Source: Candidatus Altimarinota bacterium
GTDB taxonomy: Bacteria; Patescibacteriota; Gracilibacteria; UBA1369; GCA-2718715
Direction: 5' to 3'
DNA: 64,000 nt
Assembly (NCBI GenBank): GCA_041242255.1
Contig: JBESAV010000001.1
Coordinates: forward strand, 896,001 to 960,000
The notes beneath the pieces are model-generated. The model did not search any database. It was not told the origin of the DNA and saw nothing but the letters and a program-made list of their open reading frames with translations. Of the stretch, positions 50,405 to 64,000 are shown one piece after another (the first letter of the stretch is position 1; every line of letters starts with the position of its first letter). Both the position numbers and the translations under genes were made by a program.

Positions 50405-51246
50405 TAGAAATCATATTATCCATATTTATCAATTTATTGTTCAACCCACACTCAGCTGATCTACAAGCAACTCAAGCTGAACAAATCACTCAACCAACTT
50501 TCATCTCTAGCGAAAGACCAGTTTTAACTGCTAAAAGTTATCTACTATTCGATCAAAACTCAAATTCAGTACTAATTTCCGAAAACCCTAATCAGAAACT
50601 ACCAATTGCCAGCCTAACTAAACTCATCACAGCTCACATCATTTCTCAAGAAAACGACCTTCAAGAAGTTGTAACCGTACCACTCGAAGCTACTCGAGTT
50701 GGTGGATCAACTATGTATTTAAGAGCAGGAGAAAGAATCACTATTGAAAATCTACTTAAAGGTCTTCTAATAAACTCAGCTAATGATGCAGCCATAACAC
50801 TAGCCGTTCACAACGCAGGAAGCACAGAAGAATTTGTCCAAAAAATGAACCAGTATGCTCTTGATTTAAACATGAACGATTCACACTTCAGCAATCCAAT
50901 GGGGTATGACTCACCTGAAAATTACTCAACCGCAAGCGACCTTCTTAATATAACACTACAAGTTATCCAAAACCCAAACCTCACAAACTTCGCTAATATC
51001 CAATCAACCACAGTAACCTCATCTAACGGACTCATTTCACATAATCTCAGAAATACAAATAAAGAACTACAAAACTTCCAACAAATCAACGGTCTTAAAA
51101 CTGGTACAACCAACACAGCCGGACAATGCCTAATCTCTACAACCAATCAATCCAACCCTCAAATATCCATAATTATAGGTAGCAACAGTCGTTTCCAAGA
51201 CACAAAAACTATGCTAGATTGGGCCAAAAATAACATTAAGTACTAG
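50401..51246 (+). CDS. D-alanyl-D-alanine carboxypeptidase (peptidase S11)
   Basis: ASLTK (SxxK), SAN (SxN), KTG. Confidence 0.92.
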   Translation: MIEIILSIFINLLFNPHSADLQATQAEQITQPTFISSERPVLTAKSYLLFDQNSNSVLISENPNQKLPIASLTKLITAHIISQENDLQEVVTVPLEATRVGGSTMYLRAGERITIENLLKGLLINSANDAAITLAVHNAGSTEEFVQKMNQYALDLNMNDSHFSNPMGYDSPENYSTASDLLNITLQVIQNPNLTNFANIQSTTVTSSNGLISHNLRNTNKELQNFQQINGLKTGTTNTAGQCLISTTNQSNPQISIIIGSNSRFQDTKTMLDWAKNNIKY

Positions 51247-51248
51247 TT

Positions 51249-52307
51249 ATGAACTCACAAATTTTTAACGAACTCTCTACAAACTTAACCCTAATTCTAG
51301 GATCGTCAGCATTTACTTTCCTTTTAGTTACAACTCTAACTGGACCATTCACCAGAATTTTAAAAAAATTCCAATTCGGCCAACAAATCCGTGAAGAAGC
51401 CATGGACGGAAAAGATGCAAAACTTTTTAAAGATCTTCACAAACACAAAAAAAACACCCCAACAATGGGAGGATTACTCATATGGGGGTCAATCCTAGTT
51501 TTATCAATCGTGACATTCATTCTACAAGAACTAGATATCATCCAGTACGGACTAATCAACAGAAGAGAAACATACCTTCCTTTATTTACACTTTTCTCAT
51601 TTGGACTTCTTGGACTTGTAGACGACATTTTCAATGTAAAAAAAATCGGAACAGTCAAAGGAATAAGATCTCTTCCCAAACTAACCTGGATGTTACTTCT
51701 CAGTGGATTAGGAGCTTGGTGGTTCAATACGAAACTTGGTTACAGCAGCATCGACCTACTAGGAATGAACCTAGAGCTAGGTGTATTCTACATACCTCTT
51801 TTCATTCTTTTTGTAACTGGATTTGCCAACGCTGTAAATTTTACTGATGGACTAGACGGCCTTGCAGCAGGACTATCAATCATGTCATTTGCCTCACTTG
51901 GTTTCATAGCCTTCCTGAACAGCCAATGGATACTATTCACCTTCTGTGCCAGCCTCTGCGGAGCAATAGCAGGGTTTCTATGGAACAACATACCACCAGC
52001 CAAATTCTTTATGGGTGACACCGGAGCTCTCAGCCTTGGAGCAACCATGGCCGTCACAGCTTTCATGATAGATGAAGTCCTTTTATTACTTTTCATTGGA
52101 TTTATTTTCATCATCGAGACTCTATCAGTTATCATCCAACTAACTTCAAAAAAATTACGTAATAAAAAAGTATTCCACATTGCACCACTACATCATCATT
52201 TTGAATATCTTGGATGGCCAGAGTTTCGTGTAACGATGCGTTTCTGGACCATAAGTATGTTCTCATGCATGCTTGGACTGATCCTAACTCTAGCCAACAT
52301 CATCTAA
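51249..52307 (+). CDS. mraY: Phospho-N-acetylmuramoyl-pentapeptide transferase
   Basis: TPTMGG, GLVDD, NAVNFTDGLDGL, FMGDTG, APLHHHFE. Confidence 0.96.
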   Translation: MNSQIFNELSTNLTLILGSSAFTFLLVTTLTGPFTRILKKFQFGQQIREEAMDGKDAKLFKDLHKHKKNTPTMGGLLIWGSILVLSIVTFILQELDIIQYGLINRRETYLPLFTLFSFGLLGLVDDIFNVKKIGTVKGIRSLPKLTWMLLLSGLGAWWFNTKLGYSSIDLLGMNLELGVFYIPLFILFVTGFANAVNFTDGLDGLAAGLSIMSFASLGFIAFLNSQWILFTFCASLCGAIAGFLWNNIPPAKFFMGDTGALSLGATMAVTAFMIDEVLLLLFIGFIFIIETLSVIIQLTSKKLRNKKVFHIAPLHHHFEYLGWPEFRVTMRFWTISMFSCMLGLILTLANII

Positions 52308-59318: not shown

Positions 59319-60035
59319 ATGCGCGAAAGACAACAAAAAATACTCAAAGCCATAATTCAAGAATTCATTAAGTCAGCTCAACCTGTTGGATCAAAAACCA
59401 TCATGGTTGGCTACAACTTTCAAGTAAGCCCTGCCACTATTCGTAGCGATATGGCCTCTCTAGAAAAAGAAGGCTTAGTTATTCAGCCACATACTTCAGC
59501 TGGAAGAATTCCTACAGACCTAGGGTACAGAGTTTTTGTTAACGACCTCCTCGACCTAGAAGAAGCAAGAAAAATTGCCAAACCACTACTTCAAGATGTA
59601 CGTCAAAAATTCCTGAAAGAACAAGTCAAAAAACGTATCCAAGATGCTGTATCAGTTCTATCAGAATCAACTCAAAACATCAGTTTTGCCACATTTCCAG
59701 ATTCAAGAGCCTTTTACTTAGGACTTAGTAACGTTCTAAAGAAACCAGAATTTTTCCAAGACCCACTTCAAGCCAGTCAAGTTATAGAAGTTTTTGAACA
59801 CAACGACAACTTCCTAAAAACAATCGACTCATTAGAGATAAGCCCAAACAAATCAGAAATATTCATCGGACAAGAAAATATTATCCCCGAAATCCAAAGT
59901 TGTAGTATGATCATATCCAAATACGCCCACCAAGACATCCAAGGTTATATCGGAATACTTGGGCCAACTAGAATGAATTACGCTACAAACTCTGTAATTC
60001 TCGAAGAAATAACTAAACTAATCAATCATGAATAA
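59319..60035 (+). CDS. hrcA: Heat-inducible transcription repressor (short form)
   Basis: RQQKILKAII, PVGS, SPATIR..M..LE, QPHTSAGRIPT, GILGPTRMNY. Confidence 0.95.
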   Translation: MRERQQKILKAIIQEFIKSAQPVGSKTIMVGYNFQVSPATIRSDMASLEKEGLVIQPHTSAGRIPTDLGYRVFVNDLLDLEEARKIAKPLLQDVRQKFLKEQVKKRIQDAVSVLSESTQNISFATFPDSRAFYLGLSNVLKKPEFFQDPLQASQVIEVFEHNDNFLKTIDSLEISPNKSEIFIGQENIIPEIQSCSMIISKYAHQDIQGYIGILGPTRMNYATNSVILEEITKLINHE

Positions 60036-60510
60036 AGACGACAAAAAAACTGAAACTACAGAACAAGATATTCAAACTCTTCAAGCAGATCTAGAAAATA
60101 TGACTAACACTGCCAAAAGAGCCTTAGCAGATCTTCAAAACTTCAAAAGACACGCCGAAGAACAACGCTCAACTCTTATGAACATGGGGCAAATCGACAT
60201 TATTACCAAAATAATGCCAATCTACGACAACCTTCAAAGAGCCATCTCACAAACCCCAGAAGAAATAAAAGATAACGACTGGGTAAAAGGAGTTCATAGT
60301 ATCCAAGAACAATTCCTCAAACTCCTCCAAAACTCAGGCCTAGAACTTCTTCCTGGAACCGGAAAACAAGCTGACCCAAACCACCACGAAATCATCACAG
60401 CAGTTCCAGGAGCACCTCAAAACCAAATCATAGAAACCCTAGAGCAAGGCTTCACATTTAACGACAAATTAATCAAACCATCAAAAGTAGTTGTAGGTTC
60501 AGATCAATAA
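60028..60510 (+). CDS. grpE: Nucleotide exchange factor GrpE
   Basis: RALADLQNFKR, DNLQRA, DPNHHE, GF......IKPSKVVV. Confidence 0.93.
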   Translation: MNKDDKKTETTEQDIQTLQADLENMTNTAKRALADLQNFKRHAEEQRSTLMNMGQIDIITKIMPIYDNLQRAISQTPEEIKDNDWVKGVHSIQEQFLKLLQNSGLELLPGTGKQADPNHHEIITAVPGAPQNQIIETLEQGFTFNDKLIKPSKVVVGSDQ

Positions 60511-60532
60511 AAAGCCTCTTCAGAGGCTTTTT
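60509..60532. terminator. Bidirectional terminator
   Basis: AAAAAGCCTC-ttca-GAGGCTTTTT. Confidence 0.85.
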
Positions 60533-60534
60533 CT

Positions 60535-61497
60535 TTACCTTCTTGGTGGCCTACCACCAGGTAACTCACCACCTGCCCCTCCAGGTGCTGCTTCTACAAA
60601 CTCTCCCTTCAAACATCGAGGAACATATGGATATTCATTTGTAATGAAGTATACATATTCATCACCTACAAAACCTCCATTACACTCATCCAAATCACCA
60701 CTACCTTCCACATAATTCCAATCAGACGTAAATGTTCCAGCTGGTGAGTTTTCATCAACAGATACTACATTTCCACCACCAGGGGTTGTATAACTACAAT
60801 TTACACCACTTCTATCATTTCCATCTAAAAAATAACTAGACTCATAAGCACCCGATTTCGAATAAACCATTAAATGTCCATCAGATGCAAACCCCACATG
60901 AACTATATCGTCATTCGAATCAAAGGCTGAAACAAGCATCTCCGAAACTCCATGATAATGATAAGCTCCACTTGGTTGAACATGGGCATTATTAAAGTCC
61001 AAACCAAGATCAGTCACATCTTGCAAAGCTTCAATTCTATACTGCACACCGTTATCACAATAAGCAACTTCAGCAGTTCCAGGCTCAAACTTAACACCAT
61101 TTAAAGCAACTCCTGGAGTCCTTGCCTCTTTACTAACTCCAGTATAAACAGGATTCAAAGCAAACTCATATCTATCACTTTGCTCTTGAATAGTATTTGG
61201 ATTTCCAGAATTCGGAAAAGCACCAGTCTCATGATTTGGCAATGCATTAGAAGTCATTACTCTTTTATCCCCAACCAACTCTACTCGAACTTGAGTGCCT
61301 GTTGCTTGATTGTCAATCCCATAATCACCAAGAAAATCACTTTCAAAAGCACTTTGTACAACATTTTCTTCTACCAAAGCCTCATCAGCCAGCTCAATCT
61401 CAACTGGAGCAACAGAAGGCTCCATACTCAATACATATATCCCACCTACCAAAACAACCACACCTCCTAACACTGATATAAAAGTATTCATTTTCAT
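60535..61497 (-). CDS. YHYH domain protein, N-terminally anchored
   Basis: SNALPNH.TG.FP...NPN, GVALNGV, NNAHVQPSGAYHYHG, GDLDECNG, YPYVPRC. Confidence 0.9.
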   Translation of the reverse strand: MKMNTFISVLGGVVVLVGGIYVLSMEPSVAPVEIELADEALVEENVVQSAFESDFLGDYGIDNQATGTQVRVELVGDKRVMTSNALPNHETGAFPNSGNPNTIQEQSDRYEFALNPVYTGVSKEARTPGVALNGVKFEPGTAEVAYCDNGVQYRIEALQDVTDLGLDFNNAHVQPSGAYHYHGVSEMLVSAFDSNDDIVHVGFASDGHLMVYSKSGAYESSYFLDGNDRSGVNCSYTTPGGGNVVSVDENSPAGTFTSDWNYVEGSGDLDECNGGFVGDEYVYFITNEYPYVPRCLKGEFVEAAPGGAGGELPGGRPPRR

Positions 61498-61501
61498 AAA
61501 C

Positions 61502-61942
61502 TTAAATTAAACCACTCGTAGCTAAAAAATATCCGACCCCAGCAGCAAAACAAGCAATCCATACCAACTTCCAAATATTCATCTCAAAATTATTTGGCAT
61601 TCTCTGAATAGCACCATCTCTAACAGGATTTAAACTAACATCAGTTTTTTTGCTATTAACTAAGTTCATACTCCCTTTCACATCTGGCTCAACCGTATCT
61701 TGATTAGAACCTAAATACTTCACTCTAACATTAGATTCATCAAATTCATCCGTTTCAATACTATCAAAAAAACCACTAGGCTTACGATTTTCAAACACAT
61801 CTAGTTTACCATCTCCATCACTATCTAAAAATCTTCTAAACTCTTCTGGAACATCCTCCAAAGAGGTGTACTCCTTGTCTCCAACTCTATAAACCGTATT
61901 ATCAGTAAACAAAGAACCAAACTCAACCTTTAGTTTTTTCAT
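61502..61942 (-). CDS. Hypothetical protein with EF-hand-like loop and C-terminal TM
   Basis: DSDGDGKLDVFE; C-terminal IWKLVWIACFAAGVGYFLA; ATG 61942 or 61960. Confidence 0.7.
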   Translation of the reverse strand: MKKLKVEFGSLFTDNTVYRVGDKEYTSLEDVPEEFRRFLDSDGDGKLDVFENRKPSGFFDSIETDEFDESNVRVKYLGSNQDTVEPDVKGSMNLVNSKKTDVSLNPVRDGAIQRMPNNFEMNIWKLVWIACFAAGVGYFLATSGLI

Positions 61943-61991
61943 AAATAGAATTAATTTCATCTATTCTACATCATTTTAAATCTCAATCTAC

Positions 61992-62019
61992 TTGACATAT
62001 TGTAAATCTAAAATAAAAT
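61992..62019 (+). promoter_or_regulatory. Sigma70 promoter of small-ORF cassette A
   Basis: TTGACA (61992-61997)-N16-TAAAAT (62014-62019). Confidence 0.65.
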
Positions 62020-62076
62020 AACCAAGTACTTATTAGTCAGGATTGGCCTGTGCTAATACTTCAATTGGAGGACAAA

Positions 62077-62211
62077 ATGTCTGAGTACGAAAGTAAGGCT
62101 GCCATCGACCATGAATATGTATGGCTCAACGAGAAAATCAAAACTGAAGATCAAAAACGAGAAAAAAAAGATAAGCCTAAACCAAAAGATATAGACCCTC
62201 ACATCAAGTGA
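62077..62211 (+). CDS. Small charged protein A (44 aa), not in the ORF track
   Basis: GGAGG SD at 62067-62071; MSEYESKAAIDHEYVWLNEKIKTEDQKREKKDKPKPKDIDPHIK; flanked by promoter and terminator. Confidence 0.7.
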   Translation: MSEYESKAAIDHEYVWLNEKIKTEDQKREKKDKPKPKDIDPHIK

Positions 62212-62227
62212 GACTTGTACTCCACCC

Positions 62228-62257
62228 AACCGCCGTCATATGACGGCGGTTTTCTTT
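62228..62257 (+). terminator. Intrinsic terminator of cassette A
   Basis: Perfect 24-bp palindrome AACCGCCGTCATATGACGGCGGTT followed by TTCTTT. Confidence 0.85.
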
Positions 62258-62300
62258 AATATCCAATTTAAAATTTAAACAAACCATTCTATCCTAAAGC

Positions 62301-62441
62301 TTATACTTGCACTGCATTGATAATCAAATCATAGACCTGAACTTGAATCTTCCTAAGTAAAATAAAACTAGCATCCAAAAGTCCTCCTCTTTCATCCCGC
62401 AACTTATCAACTATTTCTTCAGCTAATTTTTCTAAATTCAT
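62301..62441 (-). CDS. Possible small protein (46 aa), not in the ORF track
   Basis: MNLEKLAEEIVDKLRDERGGLLDASFILLRKIQVQVYDLIINAVQV; G/T-rich codons like other minus-strand genes; fills the gap between cassettes. Confidence 0.45.
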   Translation of the reverse strand: MNLEKLAEEIVDKLRDERGGLLDASFILLRKIQVQVYDLIINAVQV

Positions 62442-62507
62442 GTCTTCAATCACATCAACCTTTCCATTTCCAAACTTTCACACCTAATGCAATAAATCTA
62501 TTTAAAA

Positions 62508-62536
62508 TTGACAAAATTAAATTCCTAAAATAAATT
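62508..62536 (+). promoter_or_regulatory. Sigma70 promoter of small-ORF cassette B
   Basis: TTGACA (62508-62513)-N17-TAAATT (62531-62536). Confidence 0.6.
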
Positions 62537-62599
62537 CACGAATATCTTTCTCAGAAGATCAAGCATTCCGCTTGCGTCACGAGAAGATAAGGGGAAATC

Positions 62600-62773
62600 A
62601 TGGAAGACTTCGAGGAACTTAGAAGACAACAAGAACTACAAGAAGACGCTGAAGACCTGAAATGGTCTCCACAAAAGAACAAACACCATAAACGCAGAGA
62701 ACAAAAACCTCATAACCACCACCTCGACCCACCAACTAAAATTAACTTCAACGAGGACCTACCATTCAAATAA
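62600..62773 (+). CDS. Small charged protein B (57 aa), not in the ORF track
   Basis: AAGGGG SD at 62589-62594; MEDFEELRRQQELQEDAEDLKWSPQKNKHHKRREQKPHNHHLDPPTKINFNEDLPFK; flanked by promoter and terminator. Confidence 0.7.
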   Translation: MEDFEELRRQQELQEDAEDLKWSPQKNKHHKRREQKPHNHHLDPPTKINFNEDLPFK

Positions 62774-62786
62774 AACTTCCCCACTC

Positions 62787-62812
62787 AAACCGACCCTCAA
62801 AAGTCGGTTTTT
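62787..62812 (+). terminator. Intrinsic terminator of cassette B
   Basis: AAACCGAC-cctcaaaa-GTCGGTTT followed by TT. Confidence 0.8.
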
Positions 62813-62841
62813 CCTTGAATTATAAATTCATAAAATTTAAA

Positions 62842-62868
62842 CTAGCACTCTCTAAAAATGAGTGCTAA
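62842..62868 (+). promoter_or_regulatory. CIRCE operator (HrcA binding site) upstream of dnaK
   Basis: CTAGCACTC-N9-GAGTGCTAA, one mismatch to TTAGCACTC-N9-GAGTGCTAA; overlaps a putative promoter TTGAAT (62815-62820)-N17-TAAACT. Confidence 0.92.
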
Positions 62869-62904
62869 TATCAAGTTACAAATTAAAATTTAATCACTAA
62901 TTAA

Positions 62905-64000
62905 ATGGGAAGAATTATAGGTATCGATCTAGGTACAACTAATTCATGTTTCGCAATCATGCAAGGTGGTGAAGCAACAGTTATCAACAACCAAGAAGGT
63001 AACCGTACTACTCCATCCATGGTTGCCATGAAAGATGAAGAAAGATTAGTAGGTACACCTGCCAAAAGACAAGCAGTTGTAAATCCACTAAACACTATTT
63101 TCTCAGCTAAAAGATTAATTGGTCACAAGTTCGACGAGATCAAAGACATCGTCGACAAACTTCCATATGAAGTAAAAAAAGGACCAAAAGGTGAATGTCT
63201 TATCATCATGAATGGTAAAGAATACAGACCAGCTGAAATCTCAGCAATGGTACTCCAAAAAATCAAATCAGACGCCGAAGCCTACCTAGGAGAACCAGTA
63301 ACTGATGCAGTTATAACTGTTCCAGCTTACTTCGACGACTCTCAAAGAAAAGCAACCAAAGACGCAGGAAAAATCGCTGGGCTAAACGTACAAAGAATTA
63401 TCAACGAACCAACAGCTGCTTCCCTAGCCTACGGTATCGACAAAGAAGGCGGAGACAAAAAAGTAGCAGTTTACGATTTAGGTGGAGGTACATTCGACGT
63501 ATCCATCCTTGAGATCGCCGACATAGACGGCGAAAAACAAATCGAAGTACTAGCCACAAACGGTAACACACAATTAGGTGGAGATGACTTCGACAACGTT
63601 ATAACTCAACACATTTTAGACGAATTCAAAAAAGACCAAGGTATTGATCTTTCTAAAGACAAAGCAGCACTTCAACGTATCAACGAAGCTGCTGAAAAAG
63701 CTAAGATCGAGTTATCTTCAGCTCAAGAAACTGAAGTAAATCTTCCATTCCTTACCGCCGACGCATCAGGTCCAAAACATCTAAATCTCAAAGTAACAAG
63801 AGCCAAACTTGAAGAATTAGTAGATGAACTTCTAGAAAAGACAGTGGAACCATGCAGAACAGCTATCAAAGATGCTAAAATCTATGAATCGGACATCGAC
63901 GAAGTAATCCTAGTTGGAGGAATGACTCGTATGCCAAAAGTAGCAGAAAAAGTTAAATCAATCTTTGGTAAAGAACCACACAAAGGTCTAAACCCTGACG
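62905..64000 (+). CDS. dnaK: Chaperone DnaK (Hsp70), runs off the window end; not in the ORF track
   Basis: [66 protein letters not shown]. Confidence 0.97.

What the first reader, a model, noticed from the sequence alone, without database searches (positions are those of the whole stretch)
61992..62812. Twin self-contained small-protein cassettes hidden between grpE and dnaK: candidate undescribed system
Seen: two units, both absent from the ORF track, share one layout. Each has TTGACA followed 10-11 nt later by CTAAAATAAA, a ~50-60 nt hairpin leader, a strong SD (GGAGG or AAGGGG), a short hydrophilic ORF (44 aa at 62077-62211; 57 aa at 62600-62773), and ACTT..CCAC(C/T)CAA(A)CCG running into a GC-rich terminator. 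Most other genes here have A/T-rich leaders with no SD. The peptides look like distant paralogs: M-x-[ED]-[YF]-E start, acidic N-half, one central Trp, a basic stretch with KR(R)E, then KPxxxx[IL]DPxxK (KPKPKDIDPHIK / KPHNHHLDPPTK). Inference: an old duplicated family of independently transcribed, leader-controlled microproteins. They have no TM segment, so they are unlike type I membrane toxins. I do not recognise the family.
Basis: partly seen in the sequence, partly recalled or inferred. Interest (0 to 1): 0.8.

Follow-up and report, generated by a model that had tools for sequence, protein, structure and literature searches.

The report
Two orphan small-protein gene cassettes
Two short, self-contained genes with their own strong promoters, ribosome-binding sites and terminators sit just upstream of dnaK in a tiny marine bacterial genome; they most likely encode species-specific microproteins whose translation is held back by folding of their own mRNA, and their function is unknown.

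Summary
The described anatomy is real. Each unit has a near-consensus sigma-70 promoter, a 5' hairpin, an SD-like box, an ORF (44 or 57 aa), a C-rich box after the stop codon and an intrinsic terminator. The shared promoter motif and the shared 3' box each occur only twice in the 1.0-Mb genome, both times in these units.

SD sequences are rare in this genome. Both ORFs are longer than in shuffles (131 and 88 of 5000 reach them) and use the genome's codons, so coding is likely.

The two peptides are not detectably related: BLASTP E = 0.51, and about 30% of shuffles score as well. Neither has a homologue in any search.

The units lie in a ~2.3-kb insert that a related strain lacks. They share pieces with other small-gene cassettes in the same genome. 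The unit 1 leader hairpin (UUAGUC…GCUAA) recurs, with covarying stems, before three other SD-led small ORFs.

In silico, each unit's 3' box pairs with its own ribosome-binding region, as in icaR mRNA.

Verdict: real, lineage-specific small-protein mRNAs with structure-based translational control. Function is unknown, there are no expression data, and interest is moderate.

The parts
61992..62019 (+). Unit 1 promoter: TTGACA-N16-TAAAAT. It contains the shared CTAAAATAAA at 62008-62017.
   Evidence: 11 of 12 matches; the motif occurs only twice in the genome; unit 1 and unit 2 promoter similarity is reached by 1 of 2000 shuffles.
62031..62058 (+). Unit 1 leader hairpin: UAUUAGUCAGG-AUUGG-CCUG(U)GCUAAUA.
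   Evidence: dG -10.2, z -2.9. The motif TTAGTC..GCTAA recurs in the leaders of three other SD-led small ORFs with covarying upper stems.
62067..62071 (+). Unit 1 SD, GGAGG, 5 nt before the ATG.
   Evidence: The 16S 3' end keeps CCTCC. SD sequences are rare genome-wide.
62077..62211 (+). ORF1, 44 aa: hydrophilic, acidic N-half and basic Pro-rich tail.
   Evidence: Codon score 0.33/0.385 per codon, rank 8 of 162 intergenic small ORFs. An ORF this long arises in 131 of 5000 shuffles. AF2 predicts a helix at 3-32 followed by coil.
62213..62232 (+). Unit 1 box after the stop codon: ACTTGTACTCCACCCAACCG.
   Evidence: Its duplex with its own ribosome-binding region has dG -14.0, reached by 39 of 3000 and 30 of 2000 shuffles.
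62228..62257 (+). Unit 1 intrinsic terminator: 12-bp perfect palindrome plus T-tract.
62508..62536 (+). Unit 2 promoter: TTGACA-N17-TAAATT. It contains CTAAAATAAA at 62525-62534.
   Evidence: 10 of 12 matches..
62543..62589 (+). Unit 2 leader hairpin, unrelated in sequence to that of unit 1.
   Evidence: dG -13.8, z -3.15; the two leaders are not alike.
62589..62594 (+). Unit 2 SD-like box, AAGGGG, 5 nt before the ATG.
   Evidence: In the folding ensemble about 80% of its pairing goes to the 3' UTR.
62600..62773 (+). ORF2, 57 aa: hydrophilic, acidic helix followed by a basic His/Pro-rich tail.
   Evidence: Codon score 0.23/0.25, rank 19 of 162. An ORF this long arises in 88 of 5000 shuffles. 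AF2 predicts a helix at 4-21 followed by coil.
62775..62792 (+). Unit 2 box after the stop codon: ACTTCCCCACTCAAACCG. UUCCCC is complementary to the SD GGGGAA.
   Evidence: Duplex dG -11.1, reached by 97 of 3000 and 63 of 2000 shuffles.
62788..62812 (+). Unit 2 intrinsic terminator: 7-bp stem, 8-nt loop, T5.
   Evidence: The stricter scan missed it because it allows loops of at most 8 with other limits.

Best explanation
The two units are real, autonomously transcribed genes for lineage-specific microproteins of 44 and 57 aa. Each peptide is predicted as one acidic helix followed by a basic, disordered tail.

Each mRNA would start about 7 nt after a near-consensus sigma-70 promoter. It opens with a stable 5' hairpin, inferred to protect the 5' end and/or to bind a regulator. 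It is one of the few mRNAs in this organism that uses a Shine-Dalgarno sequence. It ends 16-17 nt after the stop codon in an intrinsic terminator.

The short C-rich box between stop codon and terminator is predicted to fold back on the mRNA's own SD and start region. The finished transcript would then be poorly translated until the pairing is opened, or it would be cut as a duplex by RNase III. This is the logic shown experimentally for icaR mRNA.

Shown here: the sequence anatomy, its statistical rarity, the coding signal and the lack of any homologue. Inferred: transcription, translation, the 5'-3' clamp and any role of the peptides.

The units belong to a loose, genome-specific set of small-gene cassettes that exchange or inherit regulatory pieces while their ORFs differ completely.
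For: Anatomy and rarity.
- Only 11 promoter-to-terminator units of 450 nt or less lie outside long ORFs in the genome. Besides these two they include the genes that I read as HU, S15 and an RRM protein (those names are my reading, not tested).

Coding signal.
- ORFs as long arise in 131 of 5000 and 88 of 5000 dinucleotide shuffles.
- Codon log-odds are 0.385 and 0.25 per codon. Windows of real genes have a median of 0.34 (5th-95th percentile 0.05-0.58). The 162 intergenic ORFs of 40-70 aa have a median of -0.04. The two ORFs rank 8 and 19 of those 162.
- Both have an SD 5 nt before the ATG in a genome where 2% of genes have one, and the 16S rRNA keeps its anti-SD.

5'-3' clamp.
- The MFE folds pair the 3' box with the SD (unit 2) or with codons 3-4, alternatively the SD (unit 1).
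- Duplex energies are reached by 39 of 3000 and 97 of 3000 shuffles of the 3' UTR, and by 30 of 2000 and 63 of 2000 on repeat.
- Each unit's own ribosome-binding region ranks 47 and 83 of 2179 such regions as a partner of its own box.
- Unit 2 SD accessibility rises from 0.19 to 0.43 when the 3' UTR is removed.
- RNase III is encoded in the genome.

Conserved ends in relatives.
- Contigs of run X5, from another study, keep both ends of both units. A T>C change turns the unit 2 box into the unit 1 form CCACCCAA.

Family context.
- TTAGTC-N3-14-GCTAA occurs 8 times in the genome, 4 of them intergenic. Three of those 4 sit in leaders of SD-led small ORFs; four scrambled control patterns gave 0, 1, 1 and 0 intergenic hits.
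- A fourth leader copy (u6) came from another scan.
- The upper stems covary: CAGG/CCUG, CUGAG/CUCAG, CAC/GUG and C/G.
- Hairpin plus GGAGG is found 3 times in this genome and 4 times in the other 204 genomes of the order, where the reversed control pattern hits 20 times.
Against: No expression data.
- No RNA run holding the stretch is listed, so no transcript, translation or peptide has been seen.

No homologues, so no test of frame conservation.
- 57-aa peptide: only itself in the word-indexed search and among 1.84 billion representatives. 44-aa peptide: only itself.
- Order-wide six-frame searches gave best non-self E-values of 0.026 and 0.013 per genome, several with internal stops.

Related contigs.
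- In X5 the middle of each ORF is not alignable at 80% identity (joints 62115->62193 and 62636->62717, 'between: not known').
- If these were plain deletions of 77 and 80 nt they would break both frames.

Limits of the coding and clamp evidence.
- Lys/Glu-rich, A-rich sequence scores well in codon tests by composition.
- For unit 1 the SD is predicted to be sequestered mainly locally, and removing the 3' UTR does not free it.
- I framed the clamp hypothesis after seeing the folds. It fails for two sister cassettes, u6 (1787 of 2000 shuffles) and u7 (1229 of 2000), and is weak for u3 (177 of 2000).
- An SD may mean little in an organism that hardly uses one.
Confidence: 0.5

Rival explanations
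1. The units are small regulatory RNAs, or dual-function RNAs. The functional parts would be the conserved ends: the 5' hairpin and an unpaired C-rich box just before the terminator that could act as a seed against G-rich sites. The ORFs would be incidental or secondary.
For: Between the two units, and between this genome and the X5 relatives, the ends are conserved while the ORF interiors are not alignable. The peptides have no homologues. The shared box CCACYCAA goes beyond what pairing to two different SDs would require. Transcripts of 230-270 nt with z-scores of -3.4 and -3.1 fit sRNA sizes.
Against: ORFs this long are rare in shuffles (131 and 88 of 5000). Codon usage is gene-like in the SD-led frame. 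The SD spacing is exactly 5 nt in both units. There is no Rfam match, no Hfq and no CsrA. A scan of 2179 ribosome-binding regions found no convincing shared trans target; the top hits were spurious antisense ORFs.
Confidence: 0.2
2. They are young, weakly selected or unselected 'moron-like' insertions or proto-genes. The promoter-ORF-terminator modules would have arrived with a strain-variable insert and be drifting, without an established function.
For: The whole 60505-62832 segment is missing in a related contig that joins grpE directly to the CIRCE-dnaK region. In three related species hrcA-grpE-CIRCE-dnaK is contiguous. All the proteins are orphans. The ORF interiors change fast.
Against: Near-consensus promoters, strong terminators, hairpins with compensatory changes, and conserved ends in another study's strains all argue for maintained signals. 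GC content (0.37 and 0.41) is close to the genome's 0.36, so there is no sign of recent foreign origin. There are no PHROG hits.
Confidence: 0.15
3. They are type I toxin-antitoxin-like loci. The mRNA would be kept inert by 5'-3' pairing and encode a toxic peptide, controlled by an antisense RNA.
For: Strong promoter, structured leader, sequestered SD and long-distance 5'-3' pairing resemble hok- and AapA1-type mRNAs (my recollection of those systems). One sister cassette, u5 downstream of smpB, encodes a hydrophobic 55-aa peptide and has a weak converging promoter-like site (9 of 12).
Against: Both peptides here are strongly hydrophilic with no TM segment. No minus-strand promoter-like site lies inside either unit. 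No known toxin family matches.
Confidence: 0.05
4. Unit 1 is a heat-shock gene controlled by HrcA through a degenerate CIRCE. Its leader hairpin would be an operator rather than an RNA element.
For: The hairpin arms TTAGTCAGG / CCTGTGCTAA resemble the CIRCE arms TTAGCACTC / GAGTGCTAA. The unit lies in the hrcA-grpE-dnaK locus next to a true CIRCE at 62842-62868. A perfect CIRCE controls another 53-aa ORF in this genome. In Levilactobacillus a true CIRCE is followed by ATTGGAGG, as in unit 1.
Against: The arm spacing is 5 nt, not 9. In the four related hairpins the distance between TTAG and CTAA varies from 7 to 17 nt, which fits an RNA stem and not a dimer operator. Unit 2 has no such motif. 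Two of the related hairpins lie in unrelated loci.
Confidence: 0.07

Closest known systems
icaR mRNA of Staphylococcus aureus: a 3'-UTR UCCCCUG motif pairs with the SD (PMC3868564, abstract read)
   Same: A C-rich box downstream of the stop codon is complementary to the mRNA's own SD. Unit 2 pairs UUCCCC with GGGGAA; unit 1 pairs CUCCA with UGGAG. RNase III is encoded in the genome.
   Different: [quoted passage not shown] Here the spacer is 16-17 nt, the products are microproteins, and nothing has been tested experimentally.
hbs (HU) mRNA of Bacillus subtilis: strong SD, structured 5' UTR and a 14-bp 5'/3'-UTR interaction (PMC5737220, abstract read)
   Same: A small, autonomously transcribed mRNA with a strong SD, a structured leader and pairing between its ends that links stability to translation initiation.
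   Different: In hbs the pairing modulates RNase Y cleavage in the leader rather than occluding the SD. RNase Y and RNase J were not looked for here.
Type I toxin mRNAs (hok, AapA1 and others; recalled, no paper read)
   Same: Structured leader, SD sequestration and a long-distance 5'-3' interaction in a short mRNA, with several copies per genome.
   Different: The peptides here are hydrophilic and no antisense RNA gene is evident.
Phage 'morons': a promoter-ORF-terminator module inserted between genes (recalled, no paper read)
   Same: A self-contained transcription unit inserted between two conserved genes and missing in relatives.
   Different: There is no prophage context and no PHROG match. 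The regulatory pieces are shared with cassettes elsewhere in the chromosome.
CIRCE/HrcA operator
   Same: The arms of the unit 1 hairpin resemble CIRCE arms, and a true CIRCE lies 780 nt downstream, before dnaK.
   Different: Spacing and sequence do not fit (see the membership test).

Membership tests
Type I toxin-antitoxin | Small hydrophobic or membrane-active toxin peptide | tested here: not met
   GRAVY is -1.69 and -1.98. AF2 predicts one soluble-type helix followed by coil.
Type I toxin-antitoxin | Overlapping or adjacent antisense RNA gene | tested here: inconclusive
   No minus-strand promoter-like site of 9 of 12 or better lies within either unit. A consensus scan cannot exclude one.
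Type I toxin-antitoxin | Translationally inert full-length mRNA through 5'-3' pairing | tested here: inconclusive
   Predicted for unit 2 and ambiguous for unit 1. In silico only.
icaR-type 3'-UTR anti-SD control | A 3'-UTR motif complementary to the mRNA's own SD | tested here: met
   Duplex energies are reached by 39 of 3000 and 97 of 3000 shuffles. Each unit's own ribosome-binding region ranks 47 and 83 of 2179.
icaR-type 3'-UTR anti-SD control | The pairing blocks initiation and gives an RNase III substrate | not testable with these tools
   Only the presence of an RNase III gene was shown.
CIRCE (HrcA operator) | Inverted repeat TTAGCACTC-N9-GAGTGCTAA | tested here: not met
   The unit 1 hairpin is TTAGTCAGG-N5-CCTGTGCTAA. 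The regex for true CIRCE finds other sites only. Unit 2 has no such repeat.
Any Rfam RNA family | Covariance-model match | tested here: not met
   No match near a gathering score on 61400-63100; the best scored 23.4 bits against a cut-off of 85.
Any Pfam, PHROG or PADLOC protein family | Profile match | tested here: not met
   0 families for both peptides in all three libraries at E up to 1.
Target of a diversity-generating retroelement | Reverse transcriptase and a template repeat in the genome | tested here: not met
   No RVT_1 match in the genome. There is no second copy of the unit interiors.

The most novel reading that the evidence does not exclude
This SD-poor, reduced genome keeps a private regulon of SD-dependent microprotein mRNAs. 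The regulon would be marked by a conserved leader hairpin (UUAGUC-stem-loop-GCUAA) and, in some members, by a 3' anti-SD clamp. A dedicated RNA-binding factor, or a change in ribosome state, would then switch on a whole set of otherwise silent small proteins, for example under stress. That would be a translation-level control circuit not described for such organisms.
Probability: 0.15. Interest if true: 0.7.

Novelty: new variant of a known kind. Interest (0 to 1): 0.42.

Why it matters
Small proteins of reduced, uncultured bacteria are almost unexplored and are often missed by annotation. This genome hardly uses Shine-Dalgarno sequences, yet a handful of strongly promoted small genes combine an SD, a shared leader hairpin and, in some cases, a 3' anti-SD box. 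If they are expressed, they offer a compact natural test bed for two questions: how SD-led translation is used selectively in an SD-poor organism, and how regulatory mRNA ends are reused while the coding part turns over. If they are not expressed, they illustrate how promoter-ORF-terminator modules are born and lost next to core genes.

Tried and rejected
Known families. Rfam, Pfam, PHROGs, PADLOC and the ESM Atlas (no usable hit) gave nothing.

Homologues.
- Word-indexed searches of the 57-, 44- and 92-aa proteins returned only themselves.
- phmmer of the 57-aa peptide against 1.84 billion representatives returned only itself.
- Six-frame searches of 205 genomes of the order gave chance-level hits only.
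- A genome-contig scan with the 57-aa peptide gave 75 pattern matches, none confirmed by tblastn.

Motif scans.
- The unit pattern in metagenome contigs gave 1 hit, L027. That contig's main ORF looks to me like a Ras/Rab-type GTPase (my reading, not tested) and has no terminator after the box, so it is a chance match.
- Viral contigs gave 0 hits for three patterns.
- The 3' box in the order gave 6 hits in 204 other genomes against 8 control hits, none followed by a terminator.
- The hairpin pattern with 1 mismatch gave 5 hits in the other genomes against 9 control hits.
- A strict hairpin-plus-SD pattern over all GTDB species gave 42 stretches. 31 are Levilactobacillus or Lactobacillus true CIRCE sites and 11 are scattered.

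Expression. No RNA holder is listed for the stretch. This is no evidence either way.

Other ideas rejected or left open.
- DGR hypervariation: rejected, no reverse transcriptase.
- CsrA or Hfq control: neither is encoded.
- Bacteroidetes-style rpsU autoregulation through an SD: rpsU has no SD here.
- The 152-aa neighbour has only a weak relative in another context, without cassettes nearby.
- A trans-target search for the 3' boxes was uninformative.
- 'ACTT after the stop codon' as a family mark: rejected as non-specific (308 of 9610 ORFs; 29 carry both it and an SD, as expected by chance).
- A C-terminal motif [ILFVM]DPxx[ILVT]?[KN] ends only 2 of 3226 ORFs. I take these to be unit 1 and u3, whose ends fit it; the script printed only the count. 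I defined the motif after seeing both sequences, so it is a lead only.
- The MAFFT alignment of the four leaders was not structure-aware. I therefore built no covariance model, and the covariation is read from single-sequence folds.

No supplements of papers were consulted.
Full report
Setting. The window is bases 896001-960000 of a single-contig genome of 1,000,477 bp with 36.4% GC. Runs that hold the stretch are labelled marine metagenome. The locus reads as follows:
- hrcA at 59319-60035 (Pfam HrcA, 4.6e-24);
- grpE at 60028-60510 (1.7e-35);
- a minus-strand YHYH-family gene at 60535-61497 (4.5e-43);
- a minus-strand 152-aa orphan at 61502-61960;
- the 944-nt stretch that holds the two units;
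- a CIRCE element, CTAGCACTC-N9-GAGTGCTAA, at 62842-62868;
- dnaK from 62905 (HSP70, 8.7e-166).

Checking the observation.
- The promoter scan ranks TTGACA-N16-TAAAAT (61992-62019, 11 of 12) and TTGACA-N17-TAAATT (62508-62536, 10 of 12) as the two best sites in the region. The total number of promoter-like sites (5) is not above shuffles (5.9 +/- 2.6).
- TTGACA followed 10-11 nt later by CTAAAATAAA occurs twice in the genome, both times here. CCAC[CT]CAA(A)CCG also occurs twice, both times here, among 91 occurrences of the 8-mer core alone.
- Both leaders fold into stable hairpins: 62031-62058, dG -10.2, z -2.9; and 62543-62589, dG -13.8, z -3.15.
- Both ORFs start 5 nt after GGAGG or AAGGGG. 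Both units end in terminator hairpins. My own genome-wide scan found 158 such sites on both strands together.
- SD sequences are indeed rare. GGAG lies upstream of 10 of 589 ORFs of 200 aa or more, and a 4-nt SD core upstream of 22 of 903 ORFs of 100 aa or more. The 16S rRNA 3' end still carries CCTCC.

What fails. The peptide resemblance does not hold. BLASTP gives E = 0.51 over 12 residues. 1524 of 5000 (local) and 1383 of 5000 (global) composition-matched shuffles score at least as well. What the two peptides share is composition and layout. Each has an acidic first half (charge -2.4 and -4.5) and a basic second half (+1.5 and +2.2). Each is predicted as one N-terminal helix followed by coil: helix 3-32 with pLDDT 79.7, and helix 4-21 with pLDDT 70.7, both single-sequence AF2 models of limited weight. 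At the DNA level only the promoters are clearly alike (1 of 2000 shuffles) and the 3' ends weakly so (77 of 2000). The leaders (1912 of 2000) and the ORFs (1583 of 2000) are not alike.

Are the ORFs genes? Three independent signals say probably yes.
- ORFs of this length arise in only 131 of 5000 (unit 1) and 88 of 5000 (unit 2) dinucleotide-preserving shuffles of the transcribed stretch.
- A codon log-odds score trained on 722 long ORFs gives 0.385 and 0.25 per codon. Windows of real genes have a median of 0.34 (5th-95th percentile 0.05-0.58). The 162 intergenic ORFs of 40-70 aa have a median of -0.04. The two ORFs rank 8th and 19th of those 162, in a list whose top also holds what I read as the ribosomal proteins L34, L35 and S21 (those names are my reading).
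- In each unit the ORF fills the space between leader hairpin and terminator and has a correctly spaced SD.

Against this, A-rich Lys/Glu codons inflate such scores, and there is no comparative test because there are no homologues.
- The word-indexed search returns only the query for each peptide.
- phmmer of the 57-aa peptide against 1,835,955,588 representatives returns only itself.
- Six-frame searches of the 205 genomes of the order give best non-self E-values of 0.026 and 0.013 per genome, several with internal stops.
- A scan of all GTDB species confirms nothing.
- Pfam, PHROGs, PADLOC, Rfam and the Atlas are blank.

Population evidence. Four runs of one study hold the stretch identically and may be its source. 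A fifth run from another study (X5) holds 18% of the sampled words. Laid at 80% identity, X5 shows three things.
- One 1366-nt contig, about 80% identical in hrcA and grpE, joins 60504 directly to 62833 with 18 other letters between. A relative therefore lacks the whole 2.3-kb insert. Three species of the order also have hrcA-grpE-CIRCE-dnaK contiguous.
- Other contigs join 60512 to 61498, so they lack only the YHYH gene.
- Some contigs carry both units. Their ends agree closely with the window, with few listed differences: five in the unit 2 promoter spacer, G>A at 62232 in the unit 1 terminator stem, and T>C at 62785, which turns the unit 2 box into the unit 1 form CCACCCAA. The middle of each ORF does not align (joints 62115->62193 and 62636->62717, 'between: not known').

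The tool warns that joints at less than 95% likeness can come from other organisms. I could not see the contig sequences, so I cannot say whether the frames survive. If the gaps were plain deletions of 77 and 80 nt, both frames would break. The same pattern of conserved ends and a free middle holds between the two units themselves. A diversity-generating retroelement is excluded as the cause: the genome has no reverse transcriptase and no second copy of the unit interiors.

The 5'-3' clamp.
- The minimum-free-energy folds of both predicted transcripts (z -3.4 and -3.1) contain a long-range helix between the box after the stop codon and the translation start region. In unit 2, UUCCCC pairs with the SD GGGGAA. 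In unit 1, GUACUC pairs with codons 3-4, and CUCCA with UGGAG is an alternative.
- The duplex energy between the region from -20 to +10 around the start and the stop-to-terminator spacer is reached by 39 of 3000 (unit 1) and 97 of 3000 (unit 2) shuffles of the spacer. On repeat the figures are 30 and 63 of 2000.
- Among 2179 ribosome-binding regions of the genome, each unit's own ranks 47th and 83rd as partner of its own box.
- In the ensemble about 80% of the unit 2 SD pairing goes to the 3' UTR. Removing the 3' UTR raises SD accessibility from 0.19 to 0.43.
- For unit 1 the SD is mostly held by a local mini-hairpin, and truncation does not free it.
- RNase III is encoded in the genome.

This is the design shown for icaR mRNA, where a 3'-UTR UCCCCUG motif pairs with the SD, blocks initiation and creates an RNase III substrate (PMC3868564, abstract read). 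It is also akin to the 5'/3'-UTR interaction of the small, strongly SD-led hbs mRNA (PMC5737220, abstract read). I formed this hypothesis after seeing the folds, so the p-values are only suggestive.

The units are not alone. I screened the genome for promoter-to-terminator units of 450 nt or less outside long ORFs and found 11. I read three of them as the genes for HU, S15 and an RRM protein. Four are SD-led small ORFs: the two units plus two more. I name the sister cassettes as follows (genome coordinates, minus strand).
- u3: ATG at 587215, 92 aa, acidic, pI 4.6.
- u5: ATG at 51335, 55 aa, hydrophobic, just downstream of smpB.
- u6: ATG at 594064, 75 aa.
- u7: ATG at 538866, 108 aa.

Cassettes u6 and u7 came from a looser scan. 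All are orphans: no Pfam family, and u3 and u5 have no relative in the order. u6 and u7 were not searched in other genomes.

Unit 1 shares pieces with these cassettes.
- Its leader hairpin is alike to that of u3 (2 of 2000 shuffles).
- The motif TTAGTC-N3-14-GCTAA occurs 8 times in the genome. 4 are intergenic, although only about 10% of the genome is intergenic, and 3 of those 4 lie in the leaders of unit 1, u3 and u5. Four scrambled control patterns gave 0, 1, 1 and 0 intergenic hits.
- u6 has the motif too.
- Folded singly, the four hairpins share the lower stem UUAG/CUAA and then a U.G or U-A pair, followed in three of the four by a one-base bulge. Their upper stems differ but stay paired: CAGG/CCUG, CUGAG/CUCAG, CAC/GUG and C/G (z -2.9 to -4.7).
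- The distance between TTAG and CTAA varies from 7 to 17 nt, which fits an RNA stem better than a dimer operator.
- Unit 1 and u6 share TTGACATATT and ATTGGAGG. Unit 1 and u7 share 14 nt across the start (GACAAAATGTCTGA). Unit 1 and u3 share the context around the stop codon.
- Hairpin plus GGAGG is found 3 times in this genome, but only 4 times in the other 204 genomes of the order, where the reversed control pattern hits 20 times. The set is therefore specific to this lineage.

The clamp does not extend to the whole set. It is weak for u3 (177 of 2000) and absent for u6 (1787 of 2000) and u7 (1229 of 2000). The automatic cut of the 3' UTR was wrong for u5. Unit 2 lacks the hairpin motif.

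Relation to CIRCE. The hairpin arms recall CIRCE arms, and true CIRCE sites exist here: before dnaK, at 688878-688904, and before a 53-aa ORF at about 639645. A strict pattern (TTAGTC…GTGCTAA…ATTGGAGG) searched across all GTDB species found 42 stretches. 31 are Levilactobacillus or Lactobacillus sites, where an ordinary CIRCE (TTAGCACTT-N9-AAGTGCTAA) happens to hold TTAGTC in its spacer and precedes ATTGGAGG. The other 11 are scattered. This shows convergence or distant ancestry of leader design at most. The spacing in the units (5 nt between the arms) does not fit CIRCE.

Interpretation. The best-supported reading is two real, autonomous small-protein genes of a young, lineage-specific kind, built from a reusable regulatory kit. 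The kit has a strong sigma-70 promoter, a 5' hairpin, an SD that is exceptional for this organism, and a terminator. In these two units it also has an anti-SD box after the stop codon that should throttle translation of the finished mRNA.

What the peptides do is open. They have no TM segment, no signal for export that I could see, no Cys or metal motif, and they are predicted to be largely disordered beyond one helix. My guess is that they bind a larger partner, as many microproteins do. The position next to dnaK suggests a link to stress, but u3, u5, u6 and u7 lie elsewhere, and the insert is dispensable in relatives.

The main rival is an RNA-level function of the conserved ends, as an sRNA or dual-function RNA. 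The free-running ORF interiors favour it; ORF length, codon usage and SD spacing disfavour it. Drifting moron-like modules and type I toxin-antitoxin loci are less likely, for the reasons given under the rivals.

Novelty and score. Small orphan proteins, moron-like modules and 5'-3' anti-SD pairing are all known kinds. What is new here is their combination as a small family with a shared, covarying leader hairpin in an SD-poor reduced genome.

No paper supplements were consulted.

Noticed in passing
window 62842-62868: CIRCE element CTAGCACTC-N9-GAGTGCTAA lies directly after a -10-like TAAACT and 37 nt before dnaK. It is the only part of the 944-nt stretch with DNA matches in relatives.
   Followed up: partly
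window 60505-62832: The whole segment (YHYH gene, 152-aa gene and both units) is a strain-variable insert. One related contig in run X5 joins 60504 to 62833, and others join 60512 to 61498, lacking only the YHYH gene. Three species of the order have grpE-CIRCE-dnaK contiguous.
   Followed up: partly
window 62301-62441 (-), or 62301-62453 from a GTG start: A 46/50-aa minus-strand ORF between the two units has a gene-like codon score, rank 6 of 162 intergenic small ORFs. It has no predicted promoter or terminator and no family. The X5 relatives show no depth over it.
   Followed up: partly
G000:C1 about 639443-639660 (-), locus L037: A perfect CIRCE (TTAGCACTC-N9-GAGTGCTAA) overlaps the -10 of a TTGACG promoter in front of a 53-aa acidic orphan ORF with its own terminator. 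This is a candidate HrcA-controlled microprotein.
   Followed up: partly
G000:C1 about 51120-51440 (-), locus L038 514-832: Directly downstream of smpB, where a tmRNA gene might be expected, lies a cassette with a TTGACA promoter, a UUAGUC hairpin, an SD and a 55-aa hydrophobic ORF. ARAGORN and Rfam find no tmRNA there. A weak converging promoter-like site (9 of 12) lies just beyond its terminator. This is a possible type I toxin-like locus.
   Followed up: partly
G000:C1 586880-587320 (-), 593840-594135 (-), 538540-539000 (-): Three sister cassettes, u3 (92 aa), u6 (75 aa) and u7 (108 aa): strong promoters, SDs, orphan proteins and terminators. Each shares a different piece with unit 1.
   Followed up: partly
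whole genome: Upstream of long ORFs the bases -13 to -10 are enriched in T-T-A-A and G is depleted throughout. rpsU has no SD. The organism seems to use short A/T-rich leaders without an SD although its 16S rRNA keeps CCTCC.
   Followed up: partly
window 61502-61960 (-): The 152-aa neighbour has a C-terminal hydrophobic tail and a DxDxDG-like stretch (weak EF-hand hit, E = 0.49). A 103-aa relative of the same layout sits in another context in a genome of the same family.
   Followed up: partly
whole genome, + strand: Strong strand asymmetry: GGAGG occurs 336 times on the + strand and 1015 times on the - strand. GC skew is negative across the end of the window.
   Followed up: no
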